A stretch of DNA of 64,000 nucleotides from Escherichia coli (GCF_044324875.1 NZ_CP172185.1), one strand, 5' to 3'; positions 540 to 63,055 are shown, numbered from the stretch's first letter. Numbers and translations are program-made. The notes: generated by a model not told the origin, from the letters alone.

Positions 540-1142
540 ATGGTTAACAGTTTTGATGGTGAAAAATGGCTTCCGGTTCCTGTTGCTCCGTATGGTGATG
601 CTTACCTCGTTAGCTCGGCGGGACGCATCCGTGGGGTTAATCGAATTGCTGAATCGGAATTTTTTATTCGCCAAATTCGTGGCGTGTTCCTCAAGGGAAG
701 AGTGCGCCGGGATGGATATAAAACCGTTAACCTGAGCTACAAACGTAATCGCCAAACTTTTGCCGTACACCGTCTGGTAGCGCTGGCTTTTTGCAGCAAC
801 CCTTACAACCACCCTGAAGTGAACCATAAGGACGGCAACAAGCTGAATAACCATGCATCCAATCTGGAGTGGGTTAGCCATAGCGAAAACATTCAGCATT
901 CTATTCACACCGGGCTGAATAATTCTCAGGGGGCGAACAACAAACAATTTAAGGGCCTGATTGTCGCCACAAATATTGCGACCAGGGAAGAGCAAACCTT
1001 TTGCGGGAAAAAGGCGCTAATTAGTGCCGGGTTTGATCACGGTAGTGTTTATGCTGTTATTGCTGGAAGAACAAAGTCTCATCGCGGTCACCATTTCAGG
1101 CGCCTCCCGCTGAACCATGGGGAGGCAGCACAATGCAGCTGA
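540..1142 (+). CDS. HNH homing endonuclease (NUMOD4/HNH type)
   Basis: Motif HPEVNHKDGNKLNNHASNLEWVSHSEN; SD GAGGTGA upstream of ATG 540 (ORF track 522..1142). Confidence 0.8.
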   Translation: MVNSFDGEKWLPVPVAPYGDAYLVSSAGRIRGVNRIAESEFFIRQIRGVFLKGRVRRDGYKTVNLSYKRNRQTFAVHRLVALAFCSNPYNHPEVNHKDGNKLNNHASNLEWVSHSENIQHSIHTGLNNSQGANNKQFKGLIVATNIATREEQTFCGKKALISAGFDHGSVYAVIAGRTKSHRGHHFRRLPLNHGEAAQCS

Positions 1143-2791
1143 CAATCACGCCGAATTTTGCACAGGAGCGAGCGCTAAACATGTTGCGCCGTGACTGGAA
1201 GGCAAACGACACCTTCATGGTTTACTCGCCAACAGGTAGCGGTAAAACGGGTCTGGCAGCCTTCATAGTTGCTGGTTTTGTCAGCCGTGGTATGCGCGTT
1301 CTGTTCTGTGTTCCGTACACCATCCTGATTGGTCAGACGGCTAATCGGTTCGTGCAGTATGGTTTACCTGGAGATGAAATCGGTTATATCTGGGCGGATC
1401 ACCCTAACTACGATCCGGACCGGAAAATTCAGATTGCCAGCGCTGACACGCTTATTCGTCGTGTTTTTCCTGAAAATATCGATCTGCTGATTATCGACGA
1501 AGCGCACCTGCGTAAAAAACGCATCCTGAAGGATATCGAACGTCTGCGCGGCAAAGGCGTAAAGGTGATTGGCCTGTCGGGTACTCCGTTTTCTCCGTTC
1601 CTGGGCAAATACTATGACCGACTGATTAAGCCGACCACCATCGGCGAGTTAATCCAGCGTGGCGATCTGAGTAAATACGAATTTTACGCGCCAACTAAGC
1701 CGGATCTGAAAGGTGTTAAAACCACATCTTCGCTTGAGTACGGCCGCGATTACAACGAAACACAGCTGGCTGAAATCATGTGCGGCTCTACGCTGGTGGG
1801 CGACATCGTACAGAACTGGCTGGAGAATGGTCGGGATCTACCTACCATCGCTTTCTGCGTCAACGTAGCTCATGCCAATTATCTGACAATCCAGTTTAAC
1901 CTGGCGGGTGTTAACGCTGAGGTAATGACCGCCGACACTCCGGTAGATGAGCGCCAGACCATCATTCACCGCTTTGAAACCGGTGCAACGAAAATCATCG
2001 TTAGTGTGGGCGTTCTGGTAGCCGGATTCGATAGTGACGTTCGTTGCATCATCTACGCCAGACCAACAAAAAGCGAAATTCGCTGGTTGCAGGCACTCGG
2101 GCGTGGACTTCGCACCGCACCGGGTAAAGAGTCCTGCCTTATCTTCGATCACAGCGGCACCGTGCACCGTCTGGGTTATCCGGATTCAATCGAGTACGAC
2201 GATCTTCCCGGTAAGTCTGACGGCATGGAGGAAAGCACGCGCCGCGCAGTTGAGGAACGGGCCGAAAAATTGCCACATGAATGCCCTCAATGCCACTACA
2301 TGAAGCCAGCTGGCGTCTATGTTTGCCCGAAATGTGGACACAAGCCGCTGCGAGGTGAAGACGTTGATACTGACACTAGCCGCAAACTTAATAAGCTGGG
2401 TAAAAATCAGCATCAGTCCACGAAGGCAGAGAAACAGGCCTGGTGGAGTCAGATCAAATTTTATCAGCGCCAGCGTGCCTCACTGGGGCGTCCAGTCAGT
2501 GATGGATGGTGCGCTCACACTTTCAGGGAGAAATTCGGTGAATGGCCTGATGGGTTGAGTAGTTTCCCGATGGAAATAAGCCCAGAGGTAAGTAACTACA
2601 TCAGACACAAGCTGATCCGGTTTGCTAAAGGTCGTGAACGGACACGGAGGATGACGAAAAACTCATCCGAAGTGCTTTCTCTGCCACTGGTTGTTGGTGG
2701 CCGGTATGTTCCACCGGAAGAAAGTGAGGCTTGGCACATTATGCAGGCAAAGCAACAATTCCAGAAAAATATAAACAGTCTGAGTCAGTAA
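1133..2791 (+). CDS. SF2 DEAD/DEAH-box helicase with C-terminal zinc ribbon (phage replication helicase)
   Basis: Walker A SPTGSGKT, motif II IIDEAH, C-terminal CPQCHY...CPKCGH; RBS GGGGAGG before ATG. Confidence 0.85.
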   Translation: MQLTITPNFAQERALNMLRRDWKANDTFMVYSPTGSGKTGLAAFIVAGFVSRGMRVLFCVPYTILIGQTANRFVQYGLPGDEIGYIWADHPNYDPDRKIQIASADTLIRRVFPENIDLLIIDEAHLRKKRILKDIERLRGKGVKVIGLSGTPFSPFLGKYYDRLIKPTTIGELIQRGDLSKYEFYAPTKPDLKGVKTTSSLEYGRDYNETQLAEIMCGSTLVGDIVQNWLENGRDLPTIAFCVNVAHANYLTIQFNLAGVNAEVMTADTPVDERQTIIHRFETGATKIIVSVGVLVAGFDSDVRCIIYARPTKSEIRWLQALGRGLRTAPGKESCLIFDHSGTVHRLGYPDSIEYDDLPGKSDGMEESTRRAVEERAEKLPHECPQCHYMKPAGVYVCPKCGHKPLRGEDVDTDTSRKLNKLGKNQHQSTKAEKQAWWSQIKFYQRQRASLGRPVSDGWCAHTFREKFGEWPDGLSSFPMEISPEVSNYIRHKLIRFAKGRERTRRMTKNSSEVLSLPLVVGGRYVPPEESEAWHIMQAKQQFQKNINSLSQ

Positions 2792-2792
2792 G

Positions 2793-3761
2793 ATGAAAAC
2801 AGCAGATGCAGCGAAAGGCCGTTGGCCTGAAATATTAGAGCACTTCGGTCTGCCGCCGATAACCGGAAAAAATCACTTTAAGGGTGAATGCCCGGTATGC
2901 GGTGCACGTGGCAAGTTCCGAATTGACGACCGCGACGGTGCAGGAACGTGGATCTGTGTATGTGGTAGTGGCGATGGTATGAAACTTGTCACCCTGACAC
3001 AGGCGAAGCCATTTAACGAGATTTGTACCGAAATAGACCGCCTGATCGGTAATGATTACCAACGGGTTAAAATCCCGGTAACCAGCAGCGCCACCAGCTT
3101 ACGCAAACGGGTATTGAGCAAGTTTTCAAAACTGGAGGCACTGCGTGGTACATCCGGCGCCGCGTATCTTAATTCTCGTGGAATATTCAGTCTTCCTGCT
3201 GAGGCGATCAGGTTCAATGCCAGGCAGAGACACAACGGGAGTGTGTTCCAGTCTCTTTATTCACTTGCTACGGACGATAAAGGGGAGCTGTGCTATCTGC
3301 ATCAGACCCTGCTTGATGGTGATAAAAAAGCAGATATCGGTAGCAGTGCAAAGCGCCTCAAATCCCTGCAGGAAGATAACTATCTGGATCACGCTCGTTC
3401 TGTAGCTATCCGCATGTTTCCTGTCGCCAGCACTCTGGGTATCGCCGAAGGCATCGAAACAGCGCTGTCAGCGCACCAGATTTATAACGTGAACACCTGG
3501 GCAACCATTAACAGCGGCTTTATGAAAAAGTTCCGTGTACCAGCTGGTGTTCTGCATCTGATTATTTTTGCTGACCGTGACGAGAACAGCGCCACCGGGC
3601 TGGCTGCGGCTTGCGAATGTGCTCATGCCAATCTGATGGCAAAGAATGACCTGCAGCGCGTGAGCGTGTACTGGCCGGATCACGATGATTTCAACAATAT
3701 GCTCATGAACGGTGATCAGGTTCGGGAGCTGGTTTTCCATAAGAAAAAGGCGGTTGCGTAA
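2793..3761 (+). CDS. DNA primase-like protein (N-terminal zinc ribbon + Toprim region)
   Basis: CPVCGARGKFRIDDRDGAGTWICVCG zinc-binding motif; acidic Toprim-like FADRDEN; immediately follows helicase. Confidence 0.7.
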   Translation: MKTADAAKGRWPEILEHFGLPPITGKNHFKGECPVCGARGKFRIDDRDGAGTWICVCGSGDGMKLVTLTQAKPFNEICTEIDRLIGNDYQRVKIPVTSSATSLRKRVLSKFSKLEALRGTSGAAYLNSRGIFSLPAEAIRFNARQRHNGSVFQSLYSLATDDKGELCYLHQTLLDGDKKADIGSSAKRLKSLQEDNYLDHARSVAIRMFPVASTLGIAEGIETALSAHQIYNVNTWATINSGFMKKFRVPAGVLHLIIFADRDENSATGLAAACECAHANLMAKNDLQRVSVYWPDHDDFNNMLMNGDQVRELVFHKKKAVA

Positions 3762-4621
3762 TGCGTACTGATAACAACGAACATAAAGTACTATTCACCA
3801 TCCCGACGGCAGCGTACAGCTCCGCCCTCGCAAACATCAAGCCCCTGCCAGAGCAACGGAGAATCACCGGGCATAAGCAGACTGATGCTTATCTTTGGGT
3901 GCTGGAGGTTATCCGTCTGAACGAACCCGCACATCTGGATGCTGCTGAGGCTGCGCTGGTGAAAATTAAAATTTCCCCAAAAGAGGCTCAGGAACGCTAT
4001 TCGCGTTATCTGCTGGCGAATGGTTACGAACCTTTCCAGGTTGCGTTCGGCATCATCGGCATGGATAACCCGGCACAGGCAATCAGTATCGCCCGGGAGA
4101 ATATCAAAAAAGCAGCATCAGTCAGGGCTACGTTTGGTAGCTATGAAGCAGCACTCGAAGATGTGGAAGCCGAGCGAGTGATCAAGTCTTCCCAGAAATT
4201 TATCGACGATCATCTCTGGGGCTGGACTGCAGCCGAGAAGAAAGCGGGCAGAATTGACGGCATCCGTATGAATGAAATTGATGATCAGCGTCGTGCATAT
4301 GTTGATGGCTATCGTGATGTACTGCCAGAGCCTCATACATTGTCAGACGTAGTTCGTGAGTTTGTTTACTGGGACTGGCTCTACAGTGTTCGCCACACTG
4401 CAACTAAAGAACAGGGCGATGAGTTTGGTTACTTTGAGCATCACGAATCGGTATATGACCGCGAGCGCTACCTTGAAAAATTGCTGATGACCATCAAACC
4501 GGTGACACGGGCTGAAGCCGTGGAGGTGTGTCGTTGGTTTTTGGCAAGCGGAAAGGGCGAATATATGAAAGACAATAGCGCTGCGGTCATACTCAATCTG
4601 GTTGGGGAGTGTGAGCAATGA
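3761..4621 (+). CDS. Hypothetical protein (286 aa) in nin-like region
   Basis: Uninterrupted ORF, start overlaps primase stop; no motif recognised. Confidence 0.55.
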   Translation: MRTDNNEHKVLFTIPTAAYSSALANIKPLPEQRRITGHKQTDAYLWVLEVIRLNEPAHLDAAEAALVKIKISPKEAQERYSRYLLANGYEPFQVAFGIIGMDNPAQAISIARENIKKAASVRATFGSYEAALEDVEAERVIKSSQKFIDDHLWGWTAAEKKAGRIDGIRMNEIDDQRRAYVDGYRDVLPEPHTLSDVVREFVYWDWLYSVRHTATKEQGDEFGYFEHHESVYDRERYLEKLLMTIKPVTRAEAVEVCRWFLASGKGEYMKDNSAAVILNLVGECEQ

Positions 4622-4739
4622 AGCAGGGCTGGAAAGTTTGAAAAACTGGTGAAGGAGTTTACTGCGTGATGGCTGAATTTTTTCTCTATTCTGCCACGCT
4701 TTTTTGCAACAGGTGTGACTGGGTGGAAGGAGGGGACAG

Positions 4740-5111
4740 ATGCGTCTGGAATTTGTTTTGCCTTACCCGCCGCCGGTGAACACTTACTGGCACCGTCGTG
4801 GTGGTAAGTATTTTGTATCAAAAGCGGGGGAACGTTATCGTCGTGATGTCAGGCTTATTGTTCGCCAGCAGCAACTGAGATTAAGGCTGACCGGAAGACT
4901 GGGTATAAAAATCATCGCAGACCCGCCAGACAACCGCCGCCGTGACCTGGACAACATACTGAAAGTACCGCTGGATGCGCTGACCCATGCGGGGCTGCTT
5001 ATTGATGACGAACAGTTTGATGAAATTTATATCGTGCGTGGCGTGTCAGTACCTGACGGGCGTCTGGGAGTGAAGATTTACGAAATTACAGGTGGTAACA
5101 ATGGCGCGTGA
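4740..5111 (+). CDS. rusA: Holliday junction resolvase RusA
   Basis: 123 aa; RusA-like sequence with conserved acidic residues ([16 protein letters not shown]); RBS GGAAGGAGGGGA upstream. Confidence 0.85.
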
Positions 5112-5526
5112 TATTCAGCAGGTTATGGAGCGATGGGGGGCATGGGTGGCGAATAACCACGAAGACGTGGAATGGTCATCCATTGCCGCCGGATTCAAGG
5201 GGCTGATACCGTCAAAAGTAAAATCGCGACCGCAGTGTTCCGATGATGACGCGATGATTATCTGTGGTTGTATGGCTCAACTGAACCGGAACAACAGTGA
5301 TTTGCATGAATTGCTGGTTGATTACTACGTGTGTGGGATGACGCTGATGAAGTTAGCAAGGAAACATGGATGTTCTGATACGCATATTGGAAAGCGTTTG
5401 CAAAAAGCTGAAGGAGTGGTTGATGGCATGTTGATGATGCTGGGAGTAAGACTTGAGATGGATCGGTATGTGAGCGTAAATTATTCGATGTGCCGTAAAA
5501 CTCCGTCCTTCAGGGCAGGGATATAA
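5101..5526 (+). CDS. Late-gene antiterminator Q-like protein
   Basis: About 141 aa, directly upstream of the tRNA/lysis region; N-terminus [15 protein letters not shown] resembles the short Q type of Stx-family lambdoid phages as recalled; Cys-rich. Confidence 0.6.
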
Positions 5527-5536
5527 GGCGTACAGG

Positions 5537-5566
5537 ATAAATAAAAGAACGGGCGCAAAGCGCCCA
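5537..5566 (-). terminator. Rho-independent terminator for the opposite-strand porin gene
   Basis: Hairpin GGGCGCAAAGCGCCC followed on the minus strand by a T-rich run. Confidence 0.55.
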
Positions 5567-5709
5567 AGTATAAACAACAAAAAACGGTAATAAATAACAG
5601 AAAGTCCGTTGGAAAAGTTAAGTACTGTCCAACGTTTTGCAGTGGCATGAGGGCACCACTTTATATGTCAGAAAAGTTTCACTCTCCCGACATATTCTTA
5701 CAAAACAAA

Positions 5710-6813
5710 TCAGAACTGATAAGTCAAACCAACAGCGACAATATCATCGGTTAATACATCAGTTCTTTCAGTGAATTGATTCTTATCAAGCAGGTTGATT
5801 TTATAGTCTACGTATGTAGACATATTTTTGTTGAAGTAATAAGCAGCACCGACTTCAATGAATTTTTCAATGTATCCGTCATTATGTTTTTCAGGGATAC
5901 CAGTTTTGGTGGAAAGGTCTTTGGCTTTCGACTGGATATAAGCAAGAGACGGGCGCAAACCAAAGTCGAACTGATACTGTGCAACTACAGCGAAATCTTC
6001 AGTTTTATTGGCTACACCGTTGTAGCCGCCGGGCGAGTACTTGATTGCGCGGGTATTACGTGTTTCACCATAAGTGGCTGCCAGGTACAGATTATTCGCG
6101 TCATATTTTACGCTGGTAGCCCACTGTTCAGCTTTTTTACCTTTACCAAAAGTCGTCGCTTCCTGTGCATTGGTGCGATCGGCTGCACCATATGCAGCTA
6201 CAAAACCAAAGCCTTCATATTCATAACTGACAGAGCCGCCAACACCGTCGCCGTTTGAAGTGCCTGCATTGTCACGCTCATTTTTACCCAGATACTGAAC
6301 CGCAAAGTTCAGTCCATCAACCAGACCGAAGAAGTCGGTATTACGGTAAGTGGCAACACCACCTACACGACCCACGAAGAAGTTATCCCCGTTAACAGAA
6401 CCAGGCCCAAATTCAGGGAGGACATCAGTATAGCTTAATGCGTCATACACCACGCCATAGTTACGACCATAATCCAGAGAGCCAATATTTTCTAGTTTCA
6501 GGCCAGCGTATGCCAGACGGGTTTTGTCTCCTGCAGAGCCATCTTTTTCTGCCTTGTTGCCTTTGAATTCATATTCCCATTGACCAAAACCAGTTAACTG
6601 ATTGTTGATTTGGGTTTCACCTTTGAATCCAAGACGGGCATAAGTTCCATCACCTTCTTCTTTGGCGTTAGAAGAAAAGTAATGTTTACCCACTACTTTG
6701 CCATATAAATCCAGTTTATTACTGTTTTTATTATATATTTCTGCTGCATTTGCAGACATTGCCAGAAATACTGATGCTGCTACAGCAGAAAGTGCCACTG
6801 TTAAATTTTTCAT
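5710..6813 (-). CDS. Outer membrane porin (OmpC/NmpC family) moron
   Basis: Signal peptide [29 protein letters not shown], porin-type beta-strand composition, C-terminal aromatic residue; same position and orientation as nmpC in DLP12-type prophages. Confidence 0.85.
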
Positions 6814-7411: not shown

Positions 7412-7487
7412 GGCCCTTTAGCTCAGTGGTGAGAGCGAGCGACTCATAATCGCAAGGGCGCTGGTTCAAATTCAGCAAGGGCCACCA
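7412..7487 (+). tRNA. tRNA with anticodon CAU, ileX/ileZ-like (tRNA-Ile2 reading AUA, or Met)
   Basis: Cloverleaf folds by hand: acceptor GGCCCTT/AAGGGCC, D-arm GCTC..GAGC, anticodon loop CTCATAA, T-arm GCTGG-TTCAAAT-TCAGC, 3' CCA; close to recalled E. coli ileX. Confidence 0.85.
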
Positions 7488-7488
7488 A

Positions 7489-7565
7489 CCGCTACTAGCT
7501 CATCAGGAAAGAGCGTCAACCCTTTAAGTTGAGTGCGCTAGGTTCGATTCCCCGCTGGCGGTCCA
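7489..7565 (+). tRNA. tRNA-like element, probably degenerate (arg-tRNA-like architecture)
   Basis: Acceptor 6/7 bp, good D-arm and perfect anticodon stem, canonical T-loop TTCGATT, but T-stem has 2 mismatches and loop CCTTTAA lacks U33; ends CCA. Confidence 0.35.
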
Positions 7566-14287: not shown

Positions 14288-14477
14288 ACTGCAGGCGCTG
14301 CGTCAGGCGCGCCTTGATTTATTAACCGGTAAACGGGTGGTGTCTGTCCAGAAAGATGGTCGCAGAATTGAATATACGGCGGCTTCTCTGGATGAGCTTA
14401 ACCGGGCGATCAATGATGCGGAGTCGGTACTGGGGACAACCCGACGTCGCCGTCGTCCGCTGGGAGTGAGGTTATGA
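14271..14477 (+). CDS. W: Head-tail joining protein (lambda gpW-like)
   Basis: 68 aa; LTGKRVVSVQKDGRRIEYT resembles lambda W. Confidence 0.85.
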   Translation: MVTVAELQALRQARLDLLTGKRVVSVQKDGRRIEYTAASLDELNRAINDAESVLGTTRRRRRPLGVRL

Positions 14478-16066
14478 AAAGAACGCCTGTCCTGATTGAT
14501 GTGAACGGCGTTCCGCTTCGTGAGAGTCTCAGCTACAACGGGGGCGGCGCAGGATTTGGCGGGCAAATGGCGGAGTGGTTGCCACCGGCGCAGAGTGTCG
14601 ATGCGGCCCTGCTGCCCGCGTTGCGTCTGGGGAATGCCCGGGCAGATGATCTGGTGCGCAATAACGGAATAGCGGCTAATGCGGTGGCCCTGCATAAGGA
14701 TCACATAGTCGGGCATATGTTTCTGATCAGCTACCGTCCGAACTGGCGCTGGCTGGGGATGCGGGAGACCGCAGCAAAAAGCTTTGTCGATGAGGTGGAG
14801 GCGGCCTGGTCGGAATACGCCGAAGGGATGTCTGGCGAGATCGACGTGGAAGGAAAACGCACGTTCACGGAATTTATCCGGGAAGGCGTGGGCGTTCATG
14901 CGTTTAACGGCGAAATCTTTGTGCAGCCGGTCTGGGATGCGGAGACTACGCAGCTGTTTCGTACGCGTTTTAAAGCCGTGAGTCCGAAACGGGTGGACAC
15001 GCCTGGACACGGTATGGGGAACCGCTTTCTGCGGGCCGGGGTGGAGGTCGATCGGCATGGACGGGCCGTTGCGTACCATATCTGTGAGGATGATTTTCCG
15101 CTCTCTGGTAGTGGACGATGGGAACGGATCCCGCGTGAACTTCCCACCGGGCGTCCGGCCATGCTGCATATTTTCGAGCCGGTTGAGGACGGGCAGACCC
15201 GTGGGGCTAATCAGTTTTACAGCGTCATGGAACGGCTGAAAATGCTCGATTCCCTGCAGGCAACACAGCTTCAGTCAGCCATAGTGAAGGCGATGTATGC
15301 AGCGACGATTGAAAGTGAACTTGATACCGAAAAGGCCTTTGAATATATCGCCGGTGCGCCGGAGGGGCAGAAGGATAATCCGCTTATTAATATTCTGGAG
15401 AAGTTCTCCAGCTGGTATGACACGAATAACGTGACACTGGGCGGTGTCAAAATTCCGCACCTTTTCCCCGGTGATGATCTGAAACTACAGACTGCGCAGG
15501 ATTCAGACAATGGATTTTCTGCGCTTGAACAGGCGCTGCTGCGGTATATCGCCGCCGGTCTTGGCGTTTCCTACGAACAGTTGTCCCGTGATTACTCGAA
15601 GGTCAGTTATTCAAGTGCCCGCGCCTCCGCCAATGAGTCGTGGCGCTATTTTATGGGGCGGCGAAAATTTATTGCGGCCCGGCTGGCCACGCAGATGTTT
15701 TCCTGCTGGCTGGAAGAGGCTCTTCTGCGGGGGATTATTCGTCCGCCACGGGCGCGTTTTGATTTTTATCAGGCGCGTTCATCCTGGTCACGGGCAGAGT
15801 GGATTGGAGCCGGAAGAATGGCCATTGACGGGCTCAAGGAGGTCCAGGAATCGGTGATGCGCATTGAGGCCGGACTGAGCACGTATGAGAAAGAGCTGGC
15901 GCTGATGGGTGAGGATTATCAGGACATTTTCCGCCAGCAGGTCAGGGAATCTGCAGAGCGGGAAAAAGCCGGACTCTCACGTCCGGTGTGGATAGCGCAG
16001 GCGTATCAGCAGCAGATAGCGGCGAGTCGCAGGCCGGAAGAGGAGACAACACCACGTGAGACGTAA
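14474..16066 (+). CDS. B: Portal protein (lambda gpB-like)
   Basis: 530 aa; position and size as lambda B. Confidence 0.9.
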   Translation: MKRTPVLIDVNGVPLRESLSYNGGGAGFGGQMAEWLPPAQSVDAALLPALRLGNARADDLVRNNGIAANAVALHKDHIVGHMFLISYRPNWRWLGMRETAAKSFVDEVEAAWSEYAEGMSGEIDVEGKRTFTEFIREGVGVHAFNGEIFVQPVWDAETTQLFRTRFKAVSPKRVDTPGHGMGNRFLRAGVEVDRHGRAVAYHICEDDFPLSGSGRWERIPRELPTGRPAMLHIFEPVEDGQTRGANQFYSVMERLKMLDSLQATQLQSAIVKAMYAATIESELDTEKAFEYIAGAPEGQKDNPLINILEKFSSWYDTNNVTLGGVKIPHLFPGDDLKLQTAQDSDNGFSALEQALLRYIAAGLGVSYEQLSRDYSKVSYSSARASANESWRYFMGRRKFIAARLATQMFSCWLEEALLRGIIRPPRARFDFYQARSSWSRAEWIGAGRMAIDGLKEVQESVMRIEAGLSTYEKELALMGEDYQDIFRQQVRESAEREKAGLSRPVWIAQAYQQQIAASRRPEEETTPRET

Positions 16067-17561
16067 TCTTTCACACATTATTGCCGCAGCATTCAATGAA
16101 CCGCTGCTTCTGGAGCCCGCCTATGCGCGGGTTTTCTTTTGCGCGCTCGGGCGCGAGATGGGGGCAGCAAGTCTTTCGGTACCACAACAGCAGGTACAGC
16201 TTGATGCTCCCGGAATGCTGGCTGAAACGGACGAGTACATGGCCGGAGGTAAACGACCGGCCCGTGTTTACCGGGTGGTGAACGGTATTGCTGTACTGCC
16301 GGTGACCGGCATGCTGGTGCACCGGCTGGGTGGTATGCGGCCATTTTCCGGAATGACAGGCTATGACGGCATTGTCGCCTGTCTTCAGCAGGCAATGGCG
16401 GACACCGCTGTCCGGGGCGTACTGCTGGACATTGACAGTCCGGGCGGGCAGGCCGCAGGCGCGTTTGACTGTGCTGACATGATTTACCGCCTCCGTCAGC
16501 AGAAGCCGGTCTGGGCACTGTGCAATGACACGGCCTGTTCTGCAGCCATGCTGCTGGCGTCGGCCTGCTCCCGACGGCTGGTTACCCAGACATCCCGTAT
16601 CGGCTCCATTGGCGTGATGATGAGCCATCTCAGCTATGCCGGTCATCTGGCGCAGGCCGGTGTGGATATCACGCTGATTTATGCCGGGGCGCACAAGGTG
16701 GATGGCAATCAGTTTGAAGCCTTACCGGAAGAGGTGCGTCAGGACATGCAGCAGCGCATTGATGCGGCACACCGGATGTTTGCCGAAAAAGTGGCGATGT
16801 ATACCGGGCTGTCTGTGGATGTGGTCACGGGAACAGAGGCCGCCGTTTTTGAAGGTCAGTCCGGCATTGAGGCCGGGCTGGCGGATGAATTAGTCAATGC
16901 GTCGGATGCCATCAGTGTGATGACCACGGCGCTGTACACACATGATACAGGAGGCACTATGCCGCAATTAACTGCAACGGAAGCCGCCGTGCAGGAGAAC
17001 CAGCGAGTGATGGGGATCCTGACGAGTAAGGAAGCGAAAGGACGTGAACAGCTTGCCACGATGCTGGCGGGACAACAGGGCATGAGCGTTGAACAGGCCC
17101 GGGAGATCCTGGCCGCGGCGGCACCACAGCAGCCGGTGGCATCCGCGCAGAGTGAAGCCGATCGCATTATGGCGTGTGAAGAGGCGAAAGGTCGTGAACA
17201 ACTGGCGGCAACGCTGGCGGCGATGCCGGAGATGACGGTGGAAAAAGCCCGCCCGATCCTGGCAGCTTCACCGCAGGCGGATGCCGGACCATCACTCCGT
17301 GATCAGATCATGGCCCTGGATGAGGCAAAAGGGGCTGAGGCGCAGGCTGAACAGCTGGCTGCCTGCCCGGGAATGACCGTGGAGAACGCCCGGGCTGTGC
17401 TGGCTGCGGGGTCAGGTAAGGCAGAACCGGTCTCTGCATCCACAACCGCCATGTTTGAACATTTCATGGCGAACCATTCACCGGCAGCGGTACAGGGTGG
17501 CGTGCCACAGACGTCAGCAGACGGTGATGCGGACGTGAAAATGCTCATGGCCATGCCATGA
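16056..17561 (+). CDS. C: Head maturation protease/scaffold (lambda gpC/Nu3-like, S49 family) with C-terminal tandem repeats
   Basis: 501 aa; ClpP/S49-like N-terminal half; C-terminus has three repeats EAKGREQLA...ILAA. Confidence 0.85.
   Translation: MRRNLSHIIAAAFNEPLLLEPAYARVFFCALGREMGAASLSVPQQQVQLDAPGMLAETDEYMAGGKRPARVYRVVNGIAVLPVTGMLVHRLGGMRPFSGMTGYDGIVACLQQAMADTAVRGVLLDIDSPGGQAAGAFDCADMIYRLRQQKPVWALCNDTACSAAMLLASACSRRLVTQTSRIGSIGVMMSHLSYAGHLAQAGVDITLIYAGAHKVDGNQFEALPEEVRQDMQQRIDAAHRMFAEKVAMYTGLSVDVVTGTEAAVFEGQSGIEAGLADELVNASDAISVMTTALYTHDTGGTMPQLTATEAAVQENQRVMGILTSKEAKGREQLATMLAGQQGMSVEQAREILAAAAPQQPVASAQSEADRIMACEEAKGREQLAATLAAMPEMTVEKARPILAASPQADAGPSLRDQIMALDEAKGAEAQAEQLAACPGMTVENARAVLAAGSGKAEPVSASTTAMFEHFMANHSPAAVQGGVPQTSADGDADVKMLMAMP
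17031..17420 (+). repeat. Three in-frame tandem repeats (about 147 nt) in C/Nu3 C-terminus
   Basis: Repeated peptide units EAKGREQLATMLAGQQGMSVEQAREILAAAAP / EAKGREQLAATLAAMPEMTVEKARPILAASPQ / EAKGAEAQAEQLAACPGMTVENARAVLAAGSG. Confidence 0.7.
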
Positions 17562-17597
17562 AGTCAGTGCTGACCATCAATATGAGGTTTTGACAAT

Positions 17598-17945
17598 ATG
17601 GTGACGAAAACCATCACTGAACAGCGTGCGGAAGTACGTATTTTTGCCGGTAATGATCCGGCTCACACCGCCACAGGCAGCAGCGGGATTTCCTCGGCAA
17701 CACCGGCACTGACGCCCCTGATGCTGGATGAAGCCACCGGGAAACTGGTGGTCTGGGACGGACAGAAAGCCGGAGGTGCGGTTGGCATACTGGTACTGCC
17801 GCTTGAAGGCACAGAGACGGTGCTGACGTATTACAAGTCGGGGACTTTTGCGACGGAGGCAATCCGCTGGCCTGACAGTGTGGATGAACACAAAAAGGCC
17901 AACGCCTTTGCCGGGAGTGCCCTGAGTCACGCGGCGCTGCCGTAA
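17598..17945 (+). CDS. D: Head decoration protein (lambda gpD-like)
   Basis: 115 aa; NDPAHTATGSSGISSATPALTPLMLD parallels lambda D. Confidence 0.85.
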   Translation: MVTKTITEQRAEVRIFAGNDPAHTATGSSGISSATPALTPLMLDEATGKLVVWDGQKAGGAVGILVLPLEGTETVLTYYKSGTFATEAIRWPDSVDEHKKANAFAGSALSHAALP

Positions 17946-18002
17946 CACGTTATCAGGCCACCGCGGTGGCCTGACTGATTTCAGAATGAAAGGAACTGAT
18001 TT

Positions 18003-19031
18003 ATGGGATTGTTTACGACCCGCCAGTTACTCGGTTATACCGAACAAAAAGTGAAATTTCGTGCGCTGTTTCTGGAGCTGTTTTTCCGCCGTACGGTGAA
18101 TTTCCATACCGAAGAGGTGATGCTGGACAAAATTACCGGAAAAACGCCGGTGGCGGCCTATGTCTCCCCGGTTGTTGAAGGAAAAGTGCTGCGTCATCGT
18201 GGTGGTGAAACCCGCGTCTTGCGTCCGGGCTACGTCAAGCCGAAACACGAATTTAATTCCCGGCAGGCGGTTGAGCGCCTTCCTGGTGAAGATCCGGCTC
18301 AACTGAACGATCCGGCTTACCGCCGTCTGCGTATCATTACCGATAACCTCAAACAGGAAGAGCACGCGATTGTCCAGGTGGAAGAAATGCAGGCGGTAAA
18401 TGCCGTGCTGTATGGCAAATACACCATGGAAGGAGACCAGTTCGAGAAAATTGAGGTCGATTTTGGCAGATCGCCGGCGAATAACATTACGCAGGCCAGT
18501 GGTAAAAAATGGTCTGAGCACGATCGTGACACGTTCGATCCTGCGCATGATATTGACCTCTACTGCGACCAGGCCAGCGGCCTTGTGAATATTGCCATTA
18601 TGGACGGTACCGTCTGGCGTCTGCTGAATGGTTTTAAGCTGTTCCGCGAAAAACTGGATACCCGTCGCGGTTCAAATTCGCAACTCGAAACGGCAGTGAA
18701 AGACCTGGGGGCGGTGGTGTCTTTCAAAGGGTATTACGGTGATCTGGCCATTGTGGTGGCGAAAACGTCTTATGTGGCAGAGGACGGTACCGAAAAACGT
18801 TATCTGCCAGACGGCACGCTGGTCCTGGGGAATACTGCTGCAGATGGGATCCGTTGTTACGGTGCCATTCAGGATGCACAGGCGTTGTCTGAAGGAGTGG
18901 TGGCCTCTTCCCGTTATCCGAAACACTGGCTGACGGTGGGGGATCCCGGCCGTGAATTTACCATGACGCAGTCCGCGCCGCTGATGGTGTTGCCGGACCC
19001 GGATGAGTTTGTGGTGGTACAGGTGAAATAA
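18003..19031 (+). CDS. E: Major capsid protein (lambda gpE-like)
   Basis: 342 aa; position and size as lambda E. Confidence 0.9.
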   Translation: MGLFTTRQLLGYTEQKVKFRALFLELFFRRTVNFHTEEVMLDKITGKTPVAAYVSPVVEGKVLRHRGGETRVLRPGYVKPKHEFNSRQAVERLPGEDPAQLNDPAYRRLRIITDNLKQEEHAIVQVEEMQAVNAVLYGKYTMEGDQFEKIEVDFGRSPANNITQASGKKWSEHDRDTFDPAHDIDLYCDQASGLVNIAIMDGTVWRLLNGFKLFREKLDTRRGSNSQLETAVKDLGAVVSFKGYYGDLAIVVAKTSYVAEDGTEKRYLPDGTLVLGNTAADGIRCYGAIQDAQALSEGVVASSRYPKHWLTVGDPGREFTMTQSAPLMVLPDPDEFVVVQVK

Positions 19032-52989: not shown

Positions 52990-54078
52990 TCACGGCAGGC
53001 GGTGGCGAGCTTGATAATAAGCCTGCCAGTGAGCTTCTTTATGTGTAGCGACACGTTGTTCGAAGTAACGGCGCAGACGTGCGCGATCTTCTTCGTTATC
53101 TTTGACGATGGTTCCGGCAATACAGTCCACCAGGTCGGCAGGCTCCCCCGCGCGATTCGCTAAAAACCAGGCGCGGACACCCACAGCATGGGCCACGTTA
53201 ACGGCTTCAGCGGTGGACATAATCGCTGTCAGTGTATCCATTGACGTTTTCTTTTCGCCGTTGGCACGCAGATCGCGGAACGTGCGCACCAGTAATTCCA
53301 GTACCGCGTCAGGCACTTTATGCGGAATACCGCTATGGGCCAGCAAACGCGCCGAAGCACTGGCAACCAGTTCCAGCTCCTGGGCGAAATCCATAATCGG
53401 AAAGACAGTTTCAAAATCGAAGCGACGCTTTAGCGCAGCACTCATTTCATTGACGCCGCGATCGCGGGTATTGGCAGTGGCAATAATATTAAAGCCTTCC
53501 CGCGCATAGAGCTGACTGGCTTCACCAGTGAGTTCCGGCACCGTCATTACCCTGTCAGAAAGCATACCTAACAGACAGTCTTGTACTTCCAGCGGTGTAC
53601 GCGTTATCTCTTCAAAACGGACGATTTTGCCGTCGCGCATTCCCTGGTAAAGCGGGGCAGGGACCAGCGCTTCCGTTGATGGACCATGATTGATAAGCAG
53701 AGCGTAGTTCCAGCCGTACTTGATTTGATCTTCGGTGGTAGATGCGCCGCCCTGGATGGTTAACCCGGCATCGCCGCTAATAGCGGTTGCCAGTAATTCA
53801 GACAGGAGAGATTTTGCGGTGCCAGGTTCCCCCACCAACATCAAACCGCGCCCGGTAGCGAGAGTGACTAACATGCGTTCGACAGCGGAGGGACTGATCA
53901 CGACTTTACGGCTAATATTTTGCGCTTCGTCGCCAAGGATAAAAGCACGGGCCGCAGGCAAACTTAACTGCCAACCGGGCGGGCAAGGTGCGTTATCATT
54001 TTGTTTTAATTTTGCCAGTTCATCGGCGTATAACACAGCAGCAGGTGGACGCTGCAGATGATTATTCTGCGGTGACAT
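52990..54078 (-). CDS. yehL: YehL, MoxR-like AAA+ ATPase
   Basis: 362 aa from MSPQNNHLQ; Walker A GEPGTAKS, Walker B-like region. Confidence 0.85.
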   Translation of the reverse strand: MSPQNNHLQRPPAAVLYADELAKLKQNDNAPCPPGWQLSLPAARAFILGDEAQNISRKVVISPSAVERMLVTLATGRGLMLVGEPGTAKSLLSELLATAISGDAGLTIQGGASTTEDQIKYGWNYALLINHGPSTEALVPAPLYQGMRDGKIVRFEEITRTPLEVQDCLLGMLSDRVMTVPELTGEASQLYAREGFNIIATANTRDRGVNEMSAALKRRFDFETVFPIMDFAQELELVASASARLLAHSGIPHKVPDAVLELLVRTFRDLRANGEKKTSMDTLTAIMSTAEAVNVAHAVGVRAWFLANRAGEPADLVDCIAGTIVKDNEEDRARLRRYFEQRVATHKEAHWQAYYQARHRLP

Positions 54079-54510
54079 ATATTCATCCCTGAAATGTATT
54101 AATGAAATAAACGATATTTTACGCGCAATAAATGTTTGCCGCATTAGTTGTTTGAGCGAAAAATATCTGGAAAGCAGATCACAGTACATAAAAAAACCTG
54201 CTGGTGAGGCAGGTTCTTTTATTTACTATTTTCAGGCCCAACACCGCAGCCTGTGCAACATCGTGTTCCAACGAACGAATTATAACCATCGGTGGACCCC
54301 GTTGCAATTAAGATAATGAGATTTATAATCCAGACGGTTGGGACGTTGCGCCGGATCGGACCAATTTTAAGTCCTGGCTACCGGACGGGTGGTGCTGCAG
54401 GTGGTGCCCTGATCCGGAGTGCAACATCGTGGTCCAACATACGTAAACCAGTATCGACAGGCAGTGTAAGGGTAAGGTGCTGGTGTTGCGCTCCTTAATA
54501 AGGAGAGCGA

Positions 54511-54600
54511 ATGGACACGCTGACACAAAAGTTAACCGTGCTCATTGCTGTACTGGAGCTATTAGTGGCTCTGTTACGGTTGATTGATTTGTTGAAGTAA
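54511..54600 (+). CDS. zorO: 29-aa hydrophobic peptide, ZorO-like type I toxin (copy 1)
   Basis: ATG preceded by SD AAGGAGAG; encodes MDTLTQKLTVLIAVLELLVALLRLIDLLK; followed by 9-bp-stem hairpin AAGGGGGAA...TTCCCCCTT; too short for the ORF track; matches recalled ZorO of E. coli O157. Confidence 0.55.
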   Translation: MDTLTQKLTVLIAVLELLVALLRLIDLLK

Positions 54601-55118
54601 CGGGCAAATTGAAACGCATCTAAGGGGGAAAACCGCTTCCCCCTTTAATAAAATGATTACTGTTTTTATTAATTCATCATATAACTCATTTTTATTTATA
54701 AATTCATCGATTTTATATTCAACGTACCGTTTAACCGGGATGTGAATATTTATGGTGGGCTATTGGCAAAAAATATCTGGAAAGTAGATCGCAGAAAATA
54801 AAAAAACCTGCTGGTGAGGCAGGTTCTTTTATTTACTACTTTGATGTTAAGTTACTGATAGTGCAACATGGCATCTCAACGAACGAATTATAACCACCTC
54901 TGGACAGTGTTGCAATTAAGATAATGAGATTTATAATCCTGACTGTTGGGAAGTTGCGCCGGATCGAACCCATTTCAAGTCCTGGCTACCGGACGGGTGG
55001 TGCCGCAGGTAGTGCTCTGATCCGGAGTGCAACATGGCGACTCAACATACGTAAACCAGTATCGACAGGCAGCGTAAGGGTAAGGTGCTGGTGTTGCGCT
55101 CCTTAATAAGGAGAGCGG

Positions 55119-55208
55119 ATGGACACGCTGACACAAAAGTTAACCGTGCTCATTGCCGTACTGGAGTTATTAGTGGCTCTGTTACGGTTGATTGATTTGT
55201 TGAAGTAA
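55119..55208 (+). CDS. zorP: 29-aa hydrophobic peptide, ZorO/ZorP-like type I toxin (copy 2)
   Basis: Identical 29-aa product with synonymous substitutions; same SD and downstream hairpin; which copy is zorO versus zorP is arbitrary here. Confidence 0.5.
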   Translation: MDTLTQKLTVLIAVLELLVALLRLIDLLK

Positions 55209-55261
55209 CGGGCAAAGTGAAACGCATCTAAGGGGGAATACCGTTTCCCCCTTTAATAAAG

Positions 55262-55567
55262 CTATTTTTCTATTTCTTGGTTGAATATATTCTGTAGTTC
55301 GCGATTAAAAATTGCTATTACCGTTTCAGGTGATTCACCTCGTAATTTCCGCTCATCAATAAACTCATCTCTTATATAAATCAACGCATCATTTATTAGC
55401 GGGTCGGCATCATTAAATGTTGGATGTAGCTGGAACCGTTCCAGTCGGTAGACGGAACCTGTAAATAATTCAGAGCATTTATGGATCTCAAGTCTGAAGG
55501 AAAACGGATCTTCAGGTACAGGGACCTCATAATTGTAAATAGCGACCAGCTCTTTTTGCACGCTCAT
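55262..55567 (-). CDS. yehK: YehK-like small protein
   Basis: 101 aa at the position of yehK between yehL and yehI; name assigned mainly by synteny. Confidence 0.6.
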   Translation of the reverse strand: MSVQKELVAIYNYEVPVPEDPFSFRLEIHKCSELFTGSVYRLERFQLHPTFNDADPLINDALIYIRDEFIDERKLRGESPETVIAIFNRELQNIFNQEIEK

Positions 55568-55627
55568 CGCTTTTCCCGATGGTAAGTCGTGTTGATAACG
55601 GGCAGTCGCATCACTGCCCGTTGTGTT

Positions 55628-58600
55628 TTAATGGAAAATGACGTCGGGTGCGCTTAACGCCTCACTCAAATCAAACACATCAAGTTCGGCAAAAGTGACA
55701 GATTTATTGTCACGGTATACATGAAGAGAACGGAAGCTCATTAGCGCTTTGCTATCAACATTGTAGTGGTTAAAACCGGGTGAAAACTTAAGGACCAGCC
55801 GGTACGCACCCAGGTCATAGACAAATGCGTCCTCATAGCCTGACTCCCAGCCTTTGTATCGCATTCCCATCAGTTGCCCAACGGTAGCGGATTTACCTTC
55901 CCAGCGATTCAAACTATTACTGGCTGACTCGTCAGGTGTGAGCAGCACCGTACGCCGTGCCAACTGGCGAAAAGGCGGCATAATTTCGTAATCGTCAAAA
56001 AGCTGTGCAAATTCACTGCGCATTTCTGCTGCCATTTCTAACGGGTGGGCAATGCCAATCAGAGCATCGGCAGGCAAGTCAATTGGCTCATCTTGCGCAT
56101 TGCAGAACTCCCCCTCAGCGGCCACACGAAAGGCGTTGAGTAAACGACGCGGTTCATTTGCCGGATAAACACCCCATATCAATCGCTGAGTAACCAGGCG
56201 GGTAAAGGGATGATTAACAAACAGAGAATGAAAATCTGCCAGCGACCAGCGTCGGGTGGTGCGCAGGGCAGTTTCAAGACGCGGGAGCAGGTTTTTGCTC
56301 ACCTGAGTGGCATCTTTTTTTAGCCCTTTTAGTCGGGCCAGTGCCTCGGGTGCTTTCAGTTGATCGTCATCGGCGCGCAACCGGGGAACGCTTTTCTGGC
56401 GAACGTTTTGCTGATCAAAGATAACCGGGTTAAGGTTTTCATCGAAGCGAACGGTAAATTGCCGTGGACCAAAATCAAAAATCAACGCCTGCGGATCATC
56501 AAGACCCAGTGTTGGGACTAATCTGTCCGCTAACTGTTCCTGGCTTAGCCCGCGATTTTCTGCGACCACCTGAAGAAATTCCGCCGCGTTATCACGTAAG
56601 GGGCGGGATTTCGCCCGTTGCGATATATGATGCAGCTGTATCAGTGCCATATCATTATTCATCTGAGTAAGGATGTTCAGGCCGCTGACGGCACGGGCAG
56701 ATTTGCCTTCCTGTGGCCAGGCAAGGATCTGTGTCGTCAGATCCCGTGCCGTGCTTTCGTCGCCAAAGAGACTTAACGCCAGAAATGCCCAGTTGTCTTT
56801 TGCGGGAGCACCAGCTTGTTGCCACGCGGTGAAAAGATCCCAGGCAAAGGCTGCCAGCGTTTGCGGCTGGCAAAACGTTTTCAGCTGTTCCAGTCCGCTA
56901 TAAAAACGTCCGCCCTGGGTAAAGCGCAGCATTTCGCCGATAATTTCCAGAGCGTCATCAGTAACTGGTTGATTATTCGTGATAAGGCGCGGCCTGGACC
57001 ACATTGCCGGCTGCCAGAAATCAGGGGCTTTTGGAATGCGTGTCGGGTAAATCTCTATTGGACTCTGTTTAAGTAATTGCTCCAGGGCAGGCCATACATC
57101 TGTACGCTGCCAGCGGTTTGCCACGGTTTGCAGTAACTCGCCATGTCCCTGTTCGTAAAGTAAACGCAGGGCAAGTAATGCAGCTTCGCTATTATCGCTG
57201 GATTTGGTGAAGACAAGAGGGATAAGTGCAGTAGCCGTATGTTCCGGCCACTGTAAAATCCACTGGCGGGCCAGATCACGCTGCGCCGCGAAACGTCGCC
57301 AGACGCGGGCAACGGGCAGGGCCAGTTCGGTTGCGCCGAAATGAATTAGCAGCGGAAATATCTCTTTTGGATGTCGGGCAAAGGCGGTGTTTAATCCAGG
57401 CAAAGCATCAGTGCCCAGCACACTTAACAGATATTCCACCCCGGTGTAATGAAAATCAGCCGCAACAATTTGTTGCCAGCACGATACCGCCATTTCGCGC
57501 GGCATTTGCGCGATAAGGTACAGATTCCATATCCCCCAACGCTTTTCATTACCATAGTAAAATCCGTGCTGAAAAGTTCGCCACCCTTCCATCAACGCAA
57601 TGCTATCTTGTACCAATAATGCTTTGGTGGCTTCTTCCCGGTACTGTTTAGATTTGGCCTGATGCGCGTAATAAGTACGCAATAGTCCTATTGATGTGTA
57701 TTCTTGCAGTTGCTGAGCATCAAAGGCATCCAACTGTCCATTAAGAAGACGCTTATTAAATTCCAGGCTATGAACGTCAAAGCCTAATTCCCGCAAGAAT
57801 GTATCCGCTCCTCTCTTAGCAAGACGTTCGTCAAAAGACATGGCGCTAAAATGGTCAATTGCAGTTTGCTGTTCCGGCGTCCAGTGTTCCTGGGACGACC
57901 TGCACGCTTGCGTTGCAAGTGTAAGTTCAGGCAGCGAAAAGTGAGGTATGGAAGTCTTTTTCCTGCCACGCCACGGTGGTGAAACGAGGATTTCAGGCAG
58001 ACTGCTGTTATCGGTGCAATCTATAACCGGTTTTGACGATGCCGATAAATAACTCTTCACCACTGCCCGGGCTTGAGTACTTAACCACGGCATCACCTCT
58101 TCTGCCAGTTGTGGCTGCGATGCCATCAGCGTTTGTAACAGCGTACGCCAGTATTCATCACGTGCTTTTTGCTGTGCAGGCAGCTTTTTGTCTTCGATGA
58201 TTGGATAACCAGGGCGTGCAGGCGGTTCTTTTAACGCCAGAAGCTCTGCCAGTGCGGCAAGCGTCGCATGGGGGAAATTTTTACTGTATTTAGCTACACG
58301 TTGCAGGCTGGGTTTGTTTTTATCAGCAACTAACAGCAGGGTGCGGATGACCTGCGGATGGTTAATTTGTACCAGCAGACTGCCGCAATCTTCTTTATGG
58401 GCATACATTGCCAGGCGTGGAACGGCTGCCAGTCCTTGTTCGCGCAAAAGGGCGGCGCAGGCCGCGTAGCCGAAGTGGTTTTCATGCGACATGTAGCTGG
58501 CTTCCCGATCGCTAAATATATCCTGGCTCCAGTAGCGTTCGAGTTTTTTCACCGCTCTGGGGTCATTAGCAACAACTTTTAACCACTCCTTAGAATGAAA

Positions 58601-59272: not shown

Positions 59273-59281
59273 GCTCTTTCC

Positions 59282-63043: not shown

Positions 63044-63055
63044 TGCTAAATCCTT

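What the first reader, a model, noticed from the sequence alone, without database searches (positions are those of the whole stretch)
17031..17420. Three tandem 49-aa repeats extending the C/Nu3 scaffold region
The protein is about 60 aa longer than lambda C because of three Ala/Glu-rich repeat units at the C-terminus. Repeat-number variation could alter scaffold or capsid assembly.
Basis: seen in the sequence. Interest (0 to 1): 0.3.

Follow-up and report, generated by a model that had tools for sequence, protein, structure and literature searches.

The report
Phage 21 scaffold "Tri box" repeats
The three repeats are real, but they are the long-annotated "Tri boxes" of the phage 21 head protease/scaffold gene, which is carried by prophages in about a third of complete E. 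coli genomes, so the finding is correct but ordinary.

Summary
Observation confirmed. ORF 16056-17561 (501 aa) is an S49 prohead protease followed by a scaffold segment. That segment holds three diverged copies of a ~40-aa module at aa 316-358, 366-407 and 413-453, spaced 50 and 47 aa apart. Pairwise scores lie 11-14 SD above composition-preserving shuffles.

It is not new. The gene is 96.3% identical in DNA to phage 21 gene 5. GenBank M81255.1 annotates the nested scaffold gene 6 and three repeat_regions, "Tri1 box / Tri box / Tri3 box" (function unknown). These map to window 17026-17129, 17166-17276 and 17307-17420.

Lambda C/Nu3 has one copy. So do 132 of the 146 representatives counted, taken from the best 150 of 842 matching protein clusters.

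The triplication is old. Units match their positional counterparts in E. coli and Salmonella relatives and two unassigned ones (62-89%) better than each other (43-59%). DNA identity between units is 58-68%, so this is neither an assembly artefact nor a DNA tandem repeat.

The 603-nt gene-6 region occurs in 1869 of 5426 complete E. coli genomes. Rare alleles with 2, about 2.5 and possibly 4 units exist in this lineage; a related lineage has a partial protein with four.

Each unit is predicted to be a small three-helix module joined by flexible linkers. It most likely acts as a protein-binding module of the scaffold; this is inferred, not shown.

The parts
16056..17561 (+). Homologue of phage 21 gene 5 (lambda C): a 501-aa prohead protease fused in frame to the scaffold segment. 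GTG start.
   Evidence: ORF listed. 96.3% nt identity over its full length to phage 21 gene 5 in M81255.1 and OL657228.1. 25 aa differences from phage 21 gp5. phrog_53 'head maturation protease', E = 3.6e-223.
16491..16928 (+). S49 (SppA-type) serine peptidase domain, aa 146-291.
   Evidence: Pfam PF01343, E = 6.4e-36. NCBIfam SppA domain model TIGR00706 matched at E = 1.6e-31, but its 109.6 bits are below the curated cut-off of 155.45, so this is a domain-level resemblance only.
16950..16954 (+). GGAGG ribosome-binding site for the nested scaffold gene.
   Evidence: Read directly. M81255.1 annotates a putative RBS that maps to window 16948-16952, overlapping this GGAGG; OL657228.1 also annotates an RBS at this place.
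16959..17561 (+). Nested in-frame gene 6 (Nu3-type scaffolding protein), 200 aa, identical to the C-terminal 200 aa of the protease.
   Evidence: ATG at 16959. Maps onto the annotated phage 21 gene 6 CDS. Hits phrog_8399 'head scaffolding protein' and phrog_8940 'capsid assembly protein'. Translation from this start is inferred here, not tested.
17001..17129 (+). Repeat unit 1 (Tri1 box; GenBank feature maps to 17026-17129), aa 316-358. It is the only unit with the longer RVMGIL N-terminal helix, and it gives the highest alignment score to lambda's single unit.
   Evidence: Unit profile hit of 62.8 bits. 28/49 identity to the lambda unit, z = 18.8. Tri box mapping.
17151..17276 (+). Repeat unit 2 (Tri box; GenBank feature maps to 17166-17276), aa 366-407.
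   Evidence: Unit profile hit of 75.1 bits. This is the unit lost or truncated in the 451-, 452- and 482-aa alleles. AlphaFold2 with a 101-sequence alignment predicts three short helices.
17292..17414 (+). Repeat unit 3 (Tri3 box; GenBank feature maps to 17307-17420), aa 413-453. It has Ala in place of the nearly invariant Arg of the EAKGR motif.
   Evidence: Unit profile hit of 68.4 bits. Arg is nearly invariant (at least 90%) in alignments A1 and A2. The sequence reads EAKGAE.
17415..17558 (+). Non-repeat C-terminal tail, aa 454-501: a short predicted helix (TTAMFEHFMANHS) followed by a low-confidence segment ending in MLMAMP.
   Evidence: Helix at gp6 residues 160-173 and pLDDT below 50 for residues 174-200. 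Similar tails (F-x-x-FM ... LLMSMP/LLMSIP) occur in the E. coli and Salmonella relatives P0033 and P0032.

Best explanation
The region encodes three tandem, anciently diverged copies of the conserved ~40-aa core module of lambda-type Nu3 scaffolding proteins.

The module lies in the part of the ORF that two products share. One is the full-length S49 prohead protease (gene 5 of phage 21, C of lambda). The other is the nested scaffolding protein made from an internal start (gene 6, Nu3 of lambda).

Each copy most likely folds into an independent small three-helix module, and the copies are joined by flexible Pro/Gln/Ala linkers. The modules most likely mediate the protein-protein contacts of the scaffold: with itself, and with the major capsid protein and/or the portal. 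Because the protease carries the same segment, it would be drawn into the prohead by the same contacts. It would later degrade the scaffold.

On this reading, three modules make a multivalent scaffold where lambda and most relatives have a monovalent one.

Shown here: the identity with the phage 21 Tri boxes, the copy numbers, the age of the triplication, and how widespread the module is.
Inferred: the fold, the binding role, and any effect of valency on assembly.
For: Identity:
- 96.3% nt identity to phage 21 gene 5.
- The nested gene 6 and the Tri1/Tri/Tri3 repeat_regions of M81255.1 map onto the window units.

Repeats are real: z = 11-14 against shuffles, and three stretches are matched by each of three PHROG scaffold profiles.

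A conserved module, not low-complexity filler:
- A 42-position unit profile finds 842 protein clusters at E <= 0.001 among 1.84 billion representatives.
- Nearly invariant positions are I, E, A, G, R, A, L, A, A, L.
- The module occurs near the C-terminus of S49 protease-scaffold fusions that are very diverged from the enterobacterial ones, and in small stand-alone proteins.

One copy is the norm: 132 of the 146 representatives counted have one copy, as does lambda.

Old and maintained:
- Units are closer to their positional counterparts in relatives (U1 74-86%, U2 70-89%, U3 62-73%) than to each other (43-59%).
- Only about half of the codons for shared residues are identical.
- The region is exactly 603 nt in 58 of the 60 listed rows of an even sample of 1874 complete-genome records.

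Structure:
- A single-sequence model shows three helical modules separated by linkers with pLDDT below 50, and pTM 0.24.
- A unit model built from the alignment shows three helices, with pLDDT 79.5 and pTM 0.58.

Literature on lambda: Nu3 interacts with itself, with C and with E in two-hybrid assays and is needed for portal incorporation; C may degrade Nu3 (PMC3224144).
Against: - No experiment or solved structure links the module itself to any partner. There is no sequence match in the PDB and no significant fold match.
- A paper title cited in PMC11922011 and PMC11565965 describes lambda gpNu3 as intrinsically disordered. The predicted three-helix fold may therefore form only on binding, or not at all.
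- Lambda works with one unit.
- A two-unit allele sits in a head module that looks intact, with a full-length capsid gene (L006). Three copies may not be needed.
- Unit 3 of the phage 21 type has lost the nearly invariant Arg, so it may be partly degenerate.
Confidence: 0.6

Rival explanations
1. The extra units are a tolerated, functionally neutral length expansion. They act as spacers in a largely disordered scaffold. The real contact sites lie in one unit only, or in the C-terminal tail.
For: - Lambda and 132 of the 146 representatives counted manage with one unit.
- Alleles with two units, or with a truncated unit 2, occur in nature. One is in a head module that looks intact.
- Unit 3 lacks the nearly invariant Arg.
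- Lambda gpNu3 is reported as intrinsically disordered (paper title cited).
Against: - Each unit is conserved at its own position across E. coli and Salmonella relatives and other, unassigned ones, which argues for purifying selection on all three.
- Deletion alleles are a small minority: about 2 of 60 evenly sampled complete-genome records.
- One two-unit allele lies in a degraded prophage whose capsid gene is truncated (L007).
Confidence: 0.25
2. The repeat is an assembly artefact or an unstable DNA tandem repeat, whose copy number in this window is unreliable.
For: The 551-aa four-unit allele in L009 carries an ambiguous base (N) at both junctions of its extra 150 nt. That particular variant may be an assembly problem.
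Against: - The units are 58-68% identical in DNA, with no shared exact run longer than 9 nt in register, and Tandem Repeats Finder reports nothing in the repeat span.
- The same three-unit arrangement is present in the phage 21 head-operon record M81255.1, in the independent complete phage 21 genome OL657228.1, and in 1869 complete E. coli genomes.
Confidence: 0.02
3. The repetition is maintained for a DNA- or RNA-level function, such as regulatory protein binding sites or RNA structure inside the gene, rather than for the protein.
For: The complete phage 21 record annotates two pattern-matched 'CII binding sites' on the opposite strand inside gene 6.
Against: - Conservation is at the amino-acid level, with synonymous divergence. 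Only 7-11 of the 17-21 shared residues per unit pair use the same codon.
- The module is conserved as protein in very diverged S49 fusion proteins as well.
- The annotated CII sites are simple matches to ttgyN6ttgy, and they do not recur once per unit.
Confidence: 0.03

Closest known systems
Phage 21 genes 5 and 6 with their 'Tri1 box / Tri box / Tri3 box' repeat regions (GenBank M81255.1; complete genome OL657228.1)
   Same: The same gene at 96.3% nt identity and the same 501-aa length. It has the same nested start with GGAGG, the same three units at the same positions, and the same neighbours: portal upstream, shp/decoration and major capsid genes downstream.
   Different: 25 amino-acid substitutions, nine of them between the nested start and the end of unit 3. 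Here the gene sits in a prophage in an E. coli-like chromosome rather than in the phage 21 isolate.
Lambda C / Nu3 (nested prohead protease and scaffolding protein, NC_001416 4418-5737)
   Same: Homologous S49 protease domain, in-frame nested scaffold, one copy of the same module (lambda C aa 364-400), and a similar C-terminal tail. The neighbouring capsid protein is 61% identical.
   Different: Lambda has one unit, not three. It has a Ser/Thr-rich linker about 32 aa longer before the unit. RefSeq places the nu3 start at Met-239, whereas the phage 21 gene 6 start aligns with lambda Met-308.
P22 scaffolding protein C-terminal helix-turn-helix coat-binding domain
   Same: A small helical module near the C-terminus of a largely flexible scaffold, which in P22 is the coat-binding element (PMC11565965). 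This is the functional analogy behind the proposed mechanism.
   Different: No sequence or fold match was found. The unit here is predicted as three helices, it is repeated, and it is followed by a further 48-aa tail.
Herpesvirus-type scaffolds, where a C-terminal helical region contacts the capsid protein
   Same: [quoted passage not shown] From my own knowledge, not tested here: the herpesvirus protease and scaffold are also in-frame nested products (UL26/UL26.5) that share a C-terminus.
   Different: Unrelated protease family, no homology, and no repeated module. This is an analogy only.

Membership tests
Lambda-type nested protease/scaffold gene pair (C/Nu3; phage 21 genes 5/6) | N-terminal S49 (SppA-type) serine peptidase domain | tested here: met
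   Pfam PF01343, E = 6.4e-36, aa 146-291. phrog_53 head maturation protease, E = 3.6e-223.
Lambda-type nested protease/scaffold gene pair (C/Nu3; phage 21 genes 5/6) | In-frame internal start with its own ribosome-binding site, giving a scaffold identical to the protease C-terminus | tested here: met
   GGAGG at 16950-16954 and ATG at 16959. This coincides with the annotated phage 21 gene 6 CDS start, and the annotated putative RBS overlaps the GGAGG. Actual translation from this start cannot be tested with these tools.
Lambda-type nested protease/scaffold gene pair (C/Nu3; phage 21 genes 5/6) | Position in the head operon between the portal gene and the decoration and major capsid genes | tested here: met
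   Portal ORF 14474-16066, decoration ORF 17598-17945 and capsid ORF 18003-19031. The same order is annotated in E. coli strain 135 and in phage 21.
Lambda-type nested protease/scaffold gene pair (C/Nu3; phage 21 genes 5/6) | Scaffold is required for prohead assembly and is removed by the protease | not testable with these tools
   Known for lambda from the literature (PMC3224144; PMC10695390). Not tested for this prophage.
Phage 21 Tri-box repeats | Three units in gene 6 at the annotated positions | tested here: met
   The M81255.1 repeat_regions map to window 17026-17129, 17166-17276 and 17307-17420. The unit profile finds three hits at aa 316-358, 366-407 and 413-453.
DNA tandem repeat / variable-number locus | Head-to-tail copies similar enough in DNA for slippage or homologous unequal exchange | tested here: not met
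   Tandem Repeats Finder reports nothing in the repeat span. The units are 58-68% identical in DNA, with a longest exact run of 9 nt. The rare deletion alleles have microhomology junctions.
P22-type scaffolding coat-binding helix-turn-helix domain | Sequence or structural similarity to the solved P22 domain | tested here: not met
P22-type scaffolding coat-binding helix-turn-helix domain | Direct binding to the major capsid protein | not testable with these tools
   The only available evidence is a two-hybrid Nu3-E interaction for whole lambda Nu3 (PMC3224144).

The most novel reading that the evidence does not exclude
The ~40-aa module may be an undescribed, widespread scaffold domain. It has no Pfam family, yet it matches 842 protein clusters. 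Its copy number (1 in lambda; 2, 3 and possibly 4 in phage 21-type alleles; 4 in a related E. coli lineage) could set the scaffold-to-capsid stoichiometry or the fidelity of T=7 head-size determination. If so, natural copy-number alleles would be a ready-made series for testing how scaffold valency controls capsid assembly.
Probability: 0.15. Interest if true: 0.45.

Novelty: already known. Interest (0 to 1): 0.15.

Why it matters
For annotation it matters little. This is the standard head protease/scaffold gene of phage 21-type prophages, and the repeats were recorded in GenBank decades ago with 'function unknown'.

Three things from this analysis have modest value:
- The repeated unit is a discrete, widely conserved module that no Pfam model covers.
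- One copy is the norm, and the triplication is an old state that has been maintained in one lineage.
- Natural alleles with 2 and about 2.5 units, and possibly 4, exist.

If the module is the scaffold's binding element, these alleles would allow a simple genetic test of how scaffold valency affects lambda-type capsid assembly, a process that is still poorly understood mechanistically.

Tried and rejected
- Tandem Repeats Finder on 15000-19000 found nothing in the repeat. The repeat is visible only in protein.
- Pfam and NCBIfam have no model for the unit.
- A PDB sequence search with gp6 gave no hit.
- The first homologue search, using the 200-aa scaffold, returned mostly contig-end fragments. 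The full-length query was more useful.
- The 64-nt junction probes meant to count deletion alleles in complete genomes were uninformative. The tool joins the two half-matches that flank the deleted segment, so three-unit alleles also score as full coverage. I fell back on reading match spans in evenly sampled rows.
- Genomic context of two stand-alone two-unit proteins was uninformative. P0122 lies on an 897-nt contig and P0120 lies beside a transposase.
- Three papers could not be read: Medina 2010, Medina 2011 on gpNu3, and the phage 21 head-gene paper. The first two are not held, and the search for the third found nothing. My attribution of the Tri boxes to Smith and Feiss (Gene, 1993) is from memory. 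Only the GenBank features are verified.
- I considered and rejected chance low-complexity similarity (shuffles), an assembly artefact, and a DNA-level regulatory role. See the rival explanations.

Full report
**1. What is there**

The finding lies inside ORF 16056-17561 on the + strand (501 aa, GTG start). The ORF is flanked upstream by a 530-aa portal ORF (14474-16066). Downstream lie a 115-aa decoration-protein ORF (17598-17945) and a 342-aa major capsid ORF (18003-19031).

Residues 146-291 match Pfam Peptidase_S49 (E = 6.4e-36). The whole protein matches phrog_53, 'head maturation protease' (E = 3.6e-223).

Inside the ORF and in the same frame, an ATG at 16959 is preceded by GGAGG at 16950-16954. 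It would give a 200-aa product identical to the C-terminus of the protease.

**2.

The motif EAKG recurs at aa 327, 377 and 424, so the spacing is 50 and 47 aa.

- Pairwise local alignments of the three segments score 78-102. Composition-preserving shuffles average about 25-26 with SD about 5. This gives z = 10.9-14.1, and 0 of 2000 shuffles reach the observed score.
- Three PHROG profiles match three separate stretches each: phrog_8399 'head scaffolding protein', phrog_8940 'capsid assembly protein' and phrog_17040.
- A 42-position profile built from 17 units (alignment A1) places the copies at aa 316-358, 366-407 and 413-453. These correspond to nt 17001-17129, 17151-17276 and 17292-17414.

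In DNA the units are only 58-68% identical. The longest shared exact run in register is 9 nt, and only about half of the codons for shared residues are the same. This explains why Tandem Repeats Finder reports nothing in the repeat span. An assembly artefact is therefore not a realistic explanation for this window.

**3. It is already annotated**

The ORF is 96.3% identical in DNA, over its full length, to gene 5 of phage 21 (M81255.1 and OL657228.1). It differs from phage 21 gp5 by 25 amino acids.

M81255.1 annotates the nested gene 6 with its ribosome-binding site. With the offset between that locus and the window (+13555), these map to 17026-17129, 17166-17276 and 17307-17420.

The complete phage 21 genome labels the two products 'capsid protease/scaffolding protein' and 'scaffolding protein'.

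From memory, the Tri boxes were described by Smith and Feiss (Gene, 1993). I could not retrieve that paper, so only the GenBank features count as verified here.

**4. Comparison with lambda**

Lambda C (439 aa) aligns along the protease domain and carries a single unit at aa 364-400. Unit 1 gives the highest alignment score to it (28/49 identical, z = 18.8).

The 62-aa length difference breaks down as follows:
- two additional units with their linkers add about 95 aa;
- the tail is 9 aa longer;
- the linker between the protease and the first unit is about 32 aa shorter.

The repeats are not terminal, because a 48-aa tail follows them. The neighbouring capsid protein is 61% identical to lambda E.

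**5. How common, and how variable**

A profile search of 1.84 billion representative proteins found 842 clusters at E <= 0.001. I counted units in 146 proteins: 144 of the best 150, plus the window protein and lambda C.
- 132 have one unit, 9 have two and 5 have three.
- Units occur near the C-terminus of S49 fusions (63 proteins with one unit). They also occur in proteins of 260 aa or less without an S49 domain; some of these are contig-end or chimeric fragments rather than true stand-alone scaffolds.
- The S49 fusions include proteins very diverged from the enterobacterial ones, such as P0127 and P0146.

The three-unit state is confined to the phage 21-like, Salmonella and related cluster.

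Units resemble their positional counterparts in other proteins more than each other: U1-U1 74-86%, U2-U2 70-89% and U3-U3 62-73%, against 43-59% within the protein. The triplication therefore predates the divergence of these lineages and has been maintained. A separate E. coli lineage (P0033, a partial protein) has four units, of which three are 78-89% alike, which indicates a younger amplification.

In complete E. coli genomes the gene 6 region is found in 1869 of 5426 genomes, with up to 5 copies per genome. In an even sample of the 1874 matching records, 58 of the 60 listed rows were exactly 603 nt. The other two were a 546-nt deletion allele and a truncated copy.

Variant alleles among close homologues:

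| Length | Units | Notes |
|---|---|---|
| 451 aa | U1/U2 hybrid + U3 | L006; head module looks intact |
| 452 aa | U1 + U3 | L007; degraded prophage, capsid gene cut to 88 aa |
| 482 aa | U2 truncated | 57-nt deletion between CTGGCGGC and CTGGCAGC |
| 551 aa | four units | L009; ambiguous base at both junctions, possibly artefactual |
| 657 aa | about five and a half units (five full, one truncated) | 156-aa duplication; a single genome, unverified |

The 482-aa allele is the best match in 2 of 60 evenly sampled records, which is roughly 3%. One 482-aa sequence was seen on at least 1000 contigs. The deletion junctions show short microhomologies, as expected from the low DNA identity between units.

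**6. Structure and likely mechanism**

A single-sequence AlphaFold2 model of gp6 has three helical modules separated by linkers with pLDDT below 50 (residues 57-61, 104-110 and 154-158). A fourth helix follows and the end has low confidence. The pTM of 0.24 means there is no fixed arrangement between the modules.

Known lambda biology from the literature:
- Nu3 is essential (PMC10695390).
- Nu3 interacts with itself, with C and with E in two-hybrid assays, and is needed for portal incorporation; C may degrade it (PMC3224144).
- gpNu3 is reported as intrinsically disordered (paper title cited in PMC11922011 and PMC11565965).

Taken together, the best-supported reading is that each unit is a binding module of the scaffold. 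The modules are shared with the protease, so that both products are recruited into the prohead. The phage 21 lineage would then have a trivalent scaffold. The binding role, the partner and any consequence of valency are inferences. The main rival is that the extra units are tolerated spacers, which fits lambda's single unit and the natural two-unit alleles.

**7. Verdict**

It is also very common and stable. Interest is low.

The residual value lies in three points:
- no Pfam model covers the conserved module;
- the triplication is an old, maintained state of one lineage;
- a natural series of copy-number alleles exists that could be used experimentally.

Noticed in passing
L003 2533-2545 (lambda NC_001416 about 5332-5344), compared with window 16950-16961: The phage 21-type gene 6 start (GGAGG, then ATG) aligns with lambda C Met-308. 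That codon is preceded by its own strong AGGAGGG site. The RefSeq nu3 start (lambda 5132, Met-239 of C) has no counterpart here, because the aligned residue is Ile-234. Lambda may make a shorter scaffold product of about 132 aa, or the RefSeq nu3 start may be misplaced.
   Followed up: partly
L009 (LS992828.1), gene at 3001-4656: The 551-aa four-unit allele has an ambiguous base (N) at both junctions of its extra 150-nt segment. This apparent repeat expansion may be an assembly or consensus artefact rather than a real allele. A second 551-aa protein (P0233) exists but was not examined at DNA level.
   Followed up: partly
L007 (CP038421.1, E. coli O157:H7) 4801-5789: In the prophage carrying the 452-aa two-unit allele, the major capsid gene is cut to 88 aa and is followed directly by tail genes. 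This copy-number variant therefore sits in a defective prophage under relaxed selection.
   Followed up: no
window 5713-6813 (- strand): A 367-aa Gram-negative porin (Pfam Porin_1, E = 2.7e-127) is encoded on the opposite strand inside the prophage, between the replication module and the tRNA/lysis region. It looks like a prophage-borne outer-membrane porin cargo gene.
   Followed up: no
window 7412-7565: Two adjacent tRNA genes lie upstream of the lysis genes. ARAGORN calls them tRNA-Met (CAT) and tRNA-Lys (TTT). The same position in the closely related prophage of E. coli strain 135 is annotated tRNA-Ile and tRNA-Arg. The CAT-anticodon gene may therefore be a tRNA-Ile2-type gene, and the second call differs between the tools or the alleles.
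   Followed up: no
window 38290-39825 (- strand): An IS66-family transposase (512 aa; DDE_Tnp_IS66, E = 9.4e-107) lies just after the tail-fibre region, near the prophage end. The related prophage in strain 135 also carries IS66 copies, one of which interrupts the J tail-tip gene.
   Followed up: no
window 47577-63994 (- strand): Beyond the prophage lies a cluster of very large ORFs. Two are paralogous DUF4132 proteins (1214 and 1253 aa, the second with a WGR domain). There is also a DUF5682 protein (806 aa) and a SWIM zinc-finger protein (674 aa). A 5TMR-LYT histidine kinase is at 44013-45710. These look like host chromosomal genes of largely unknown function that flank the integration site.
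   Followed up: no
window 1133-3758: The prophage replication module encodes a ResIII/DEAD-type helicase (552 aa) and a Toprim/zinc-ribbon primase (322 aa), rather than lambda O/P-type proteins.
   Followed up: no
P0231 (657 aa; E. coli, on a 5.59-Mb contig): One homologue carries a 156-aa internal duplication. It runs from the end of the protease domain through units 1-2 and the start of unit 3, giving about five and a half units. It was seen in a single genome and not verified at DNA level.
   Followed up: no
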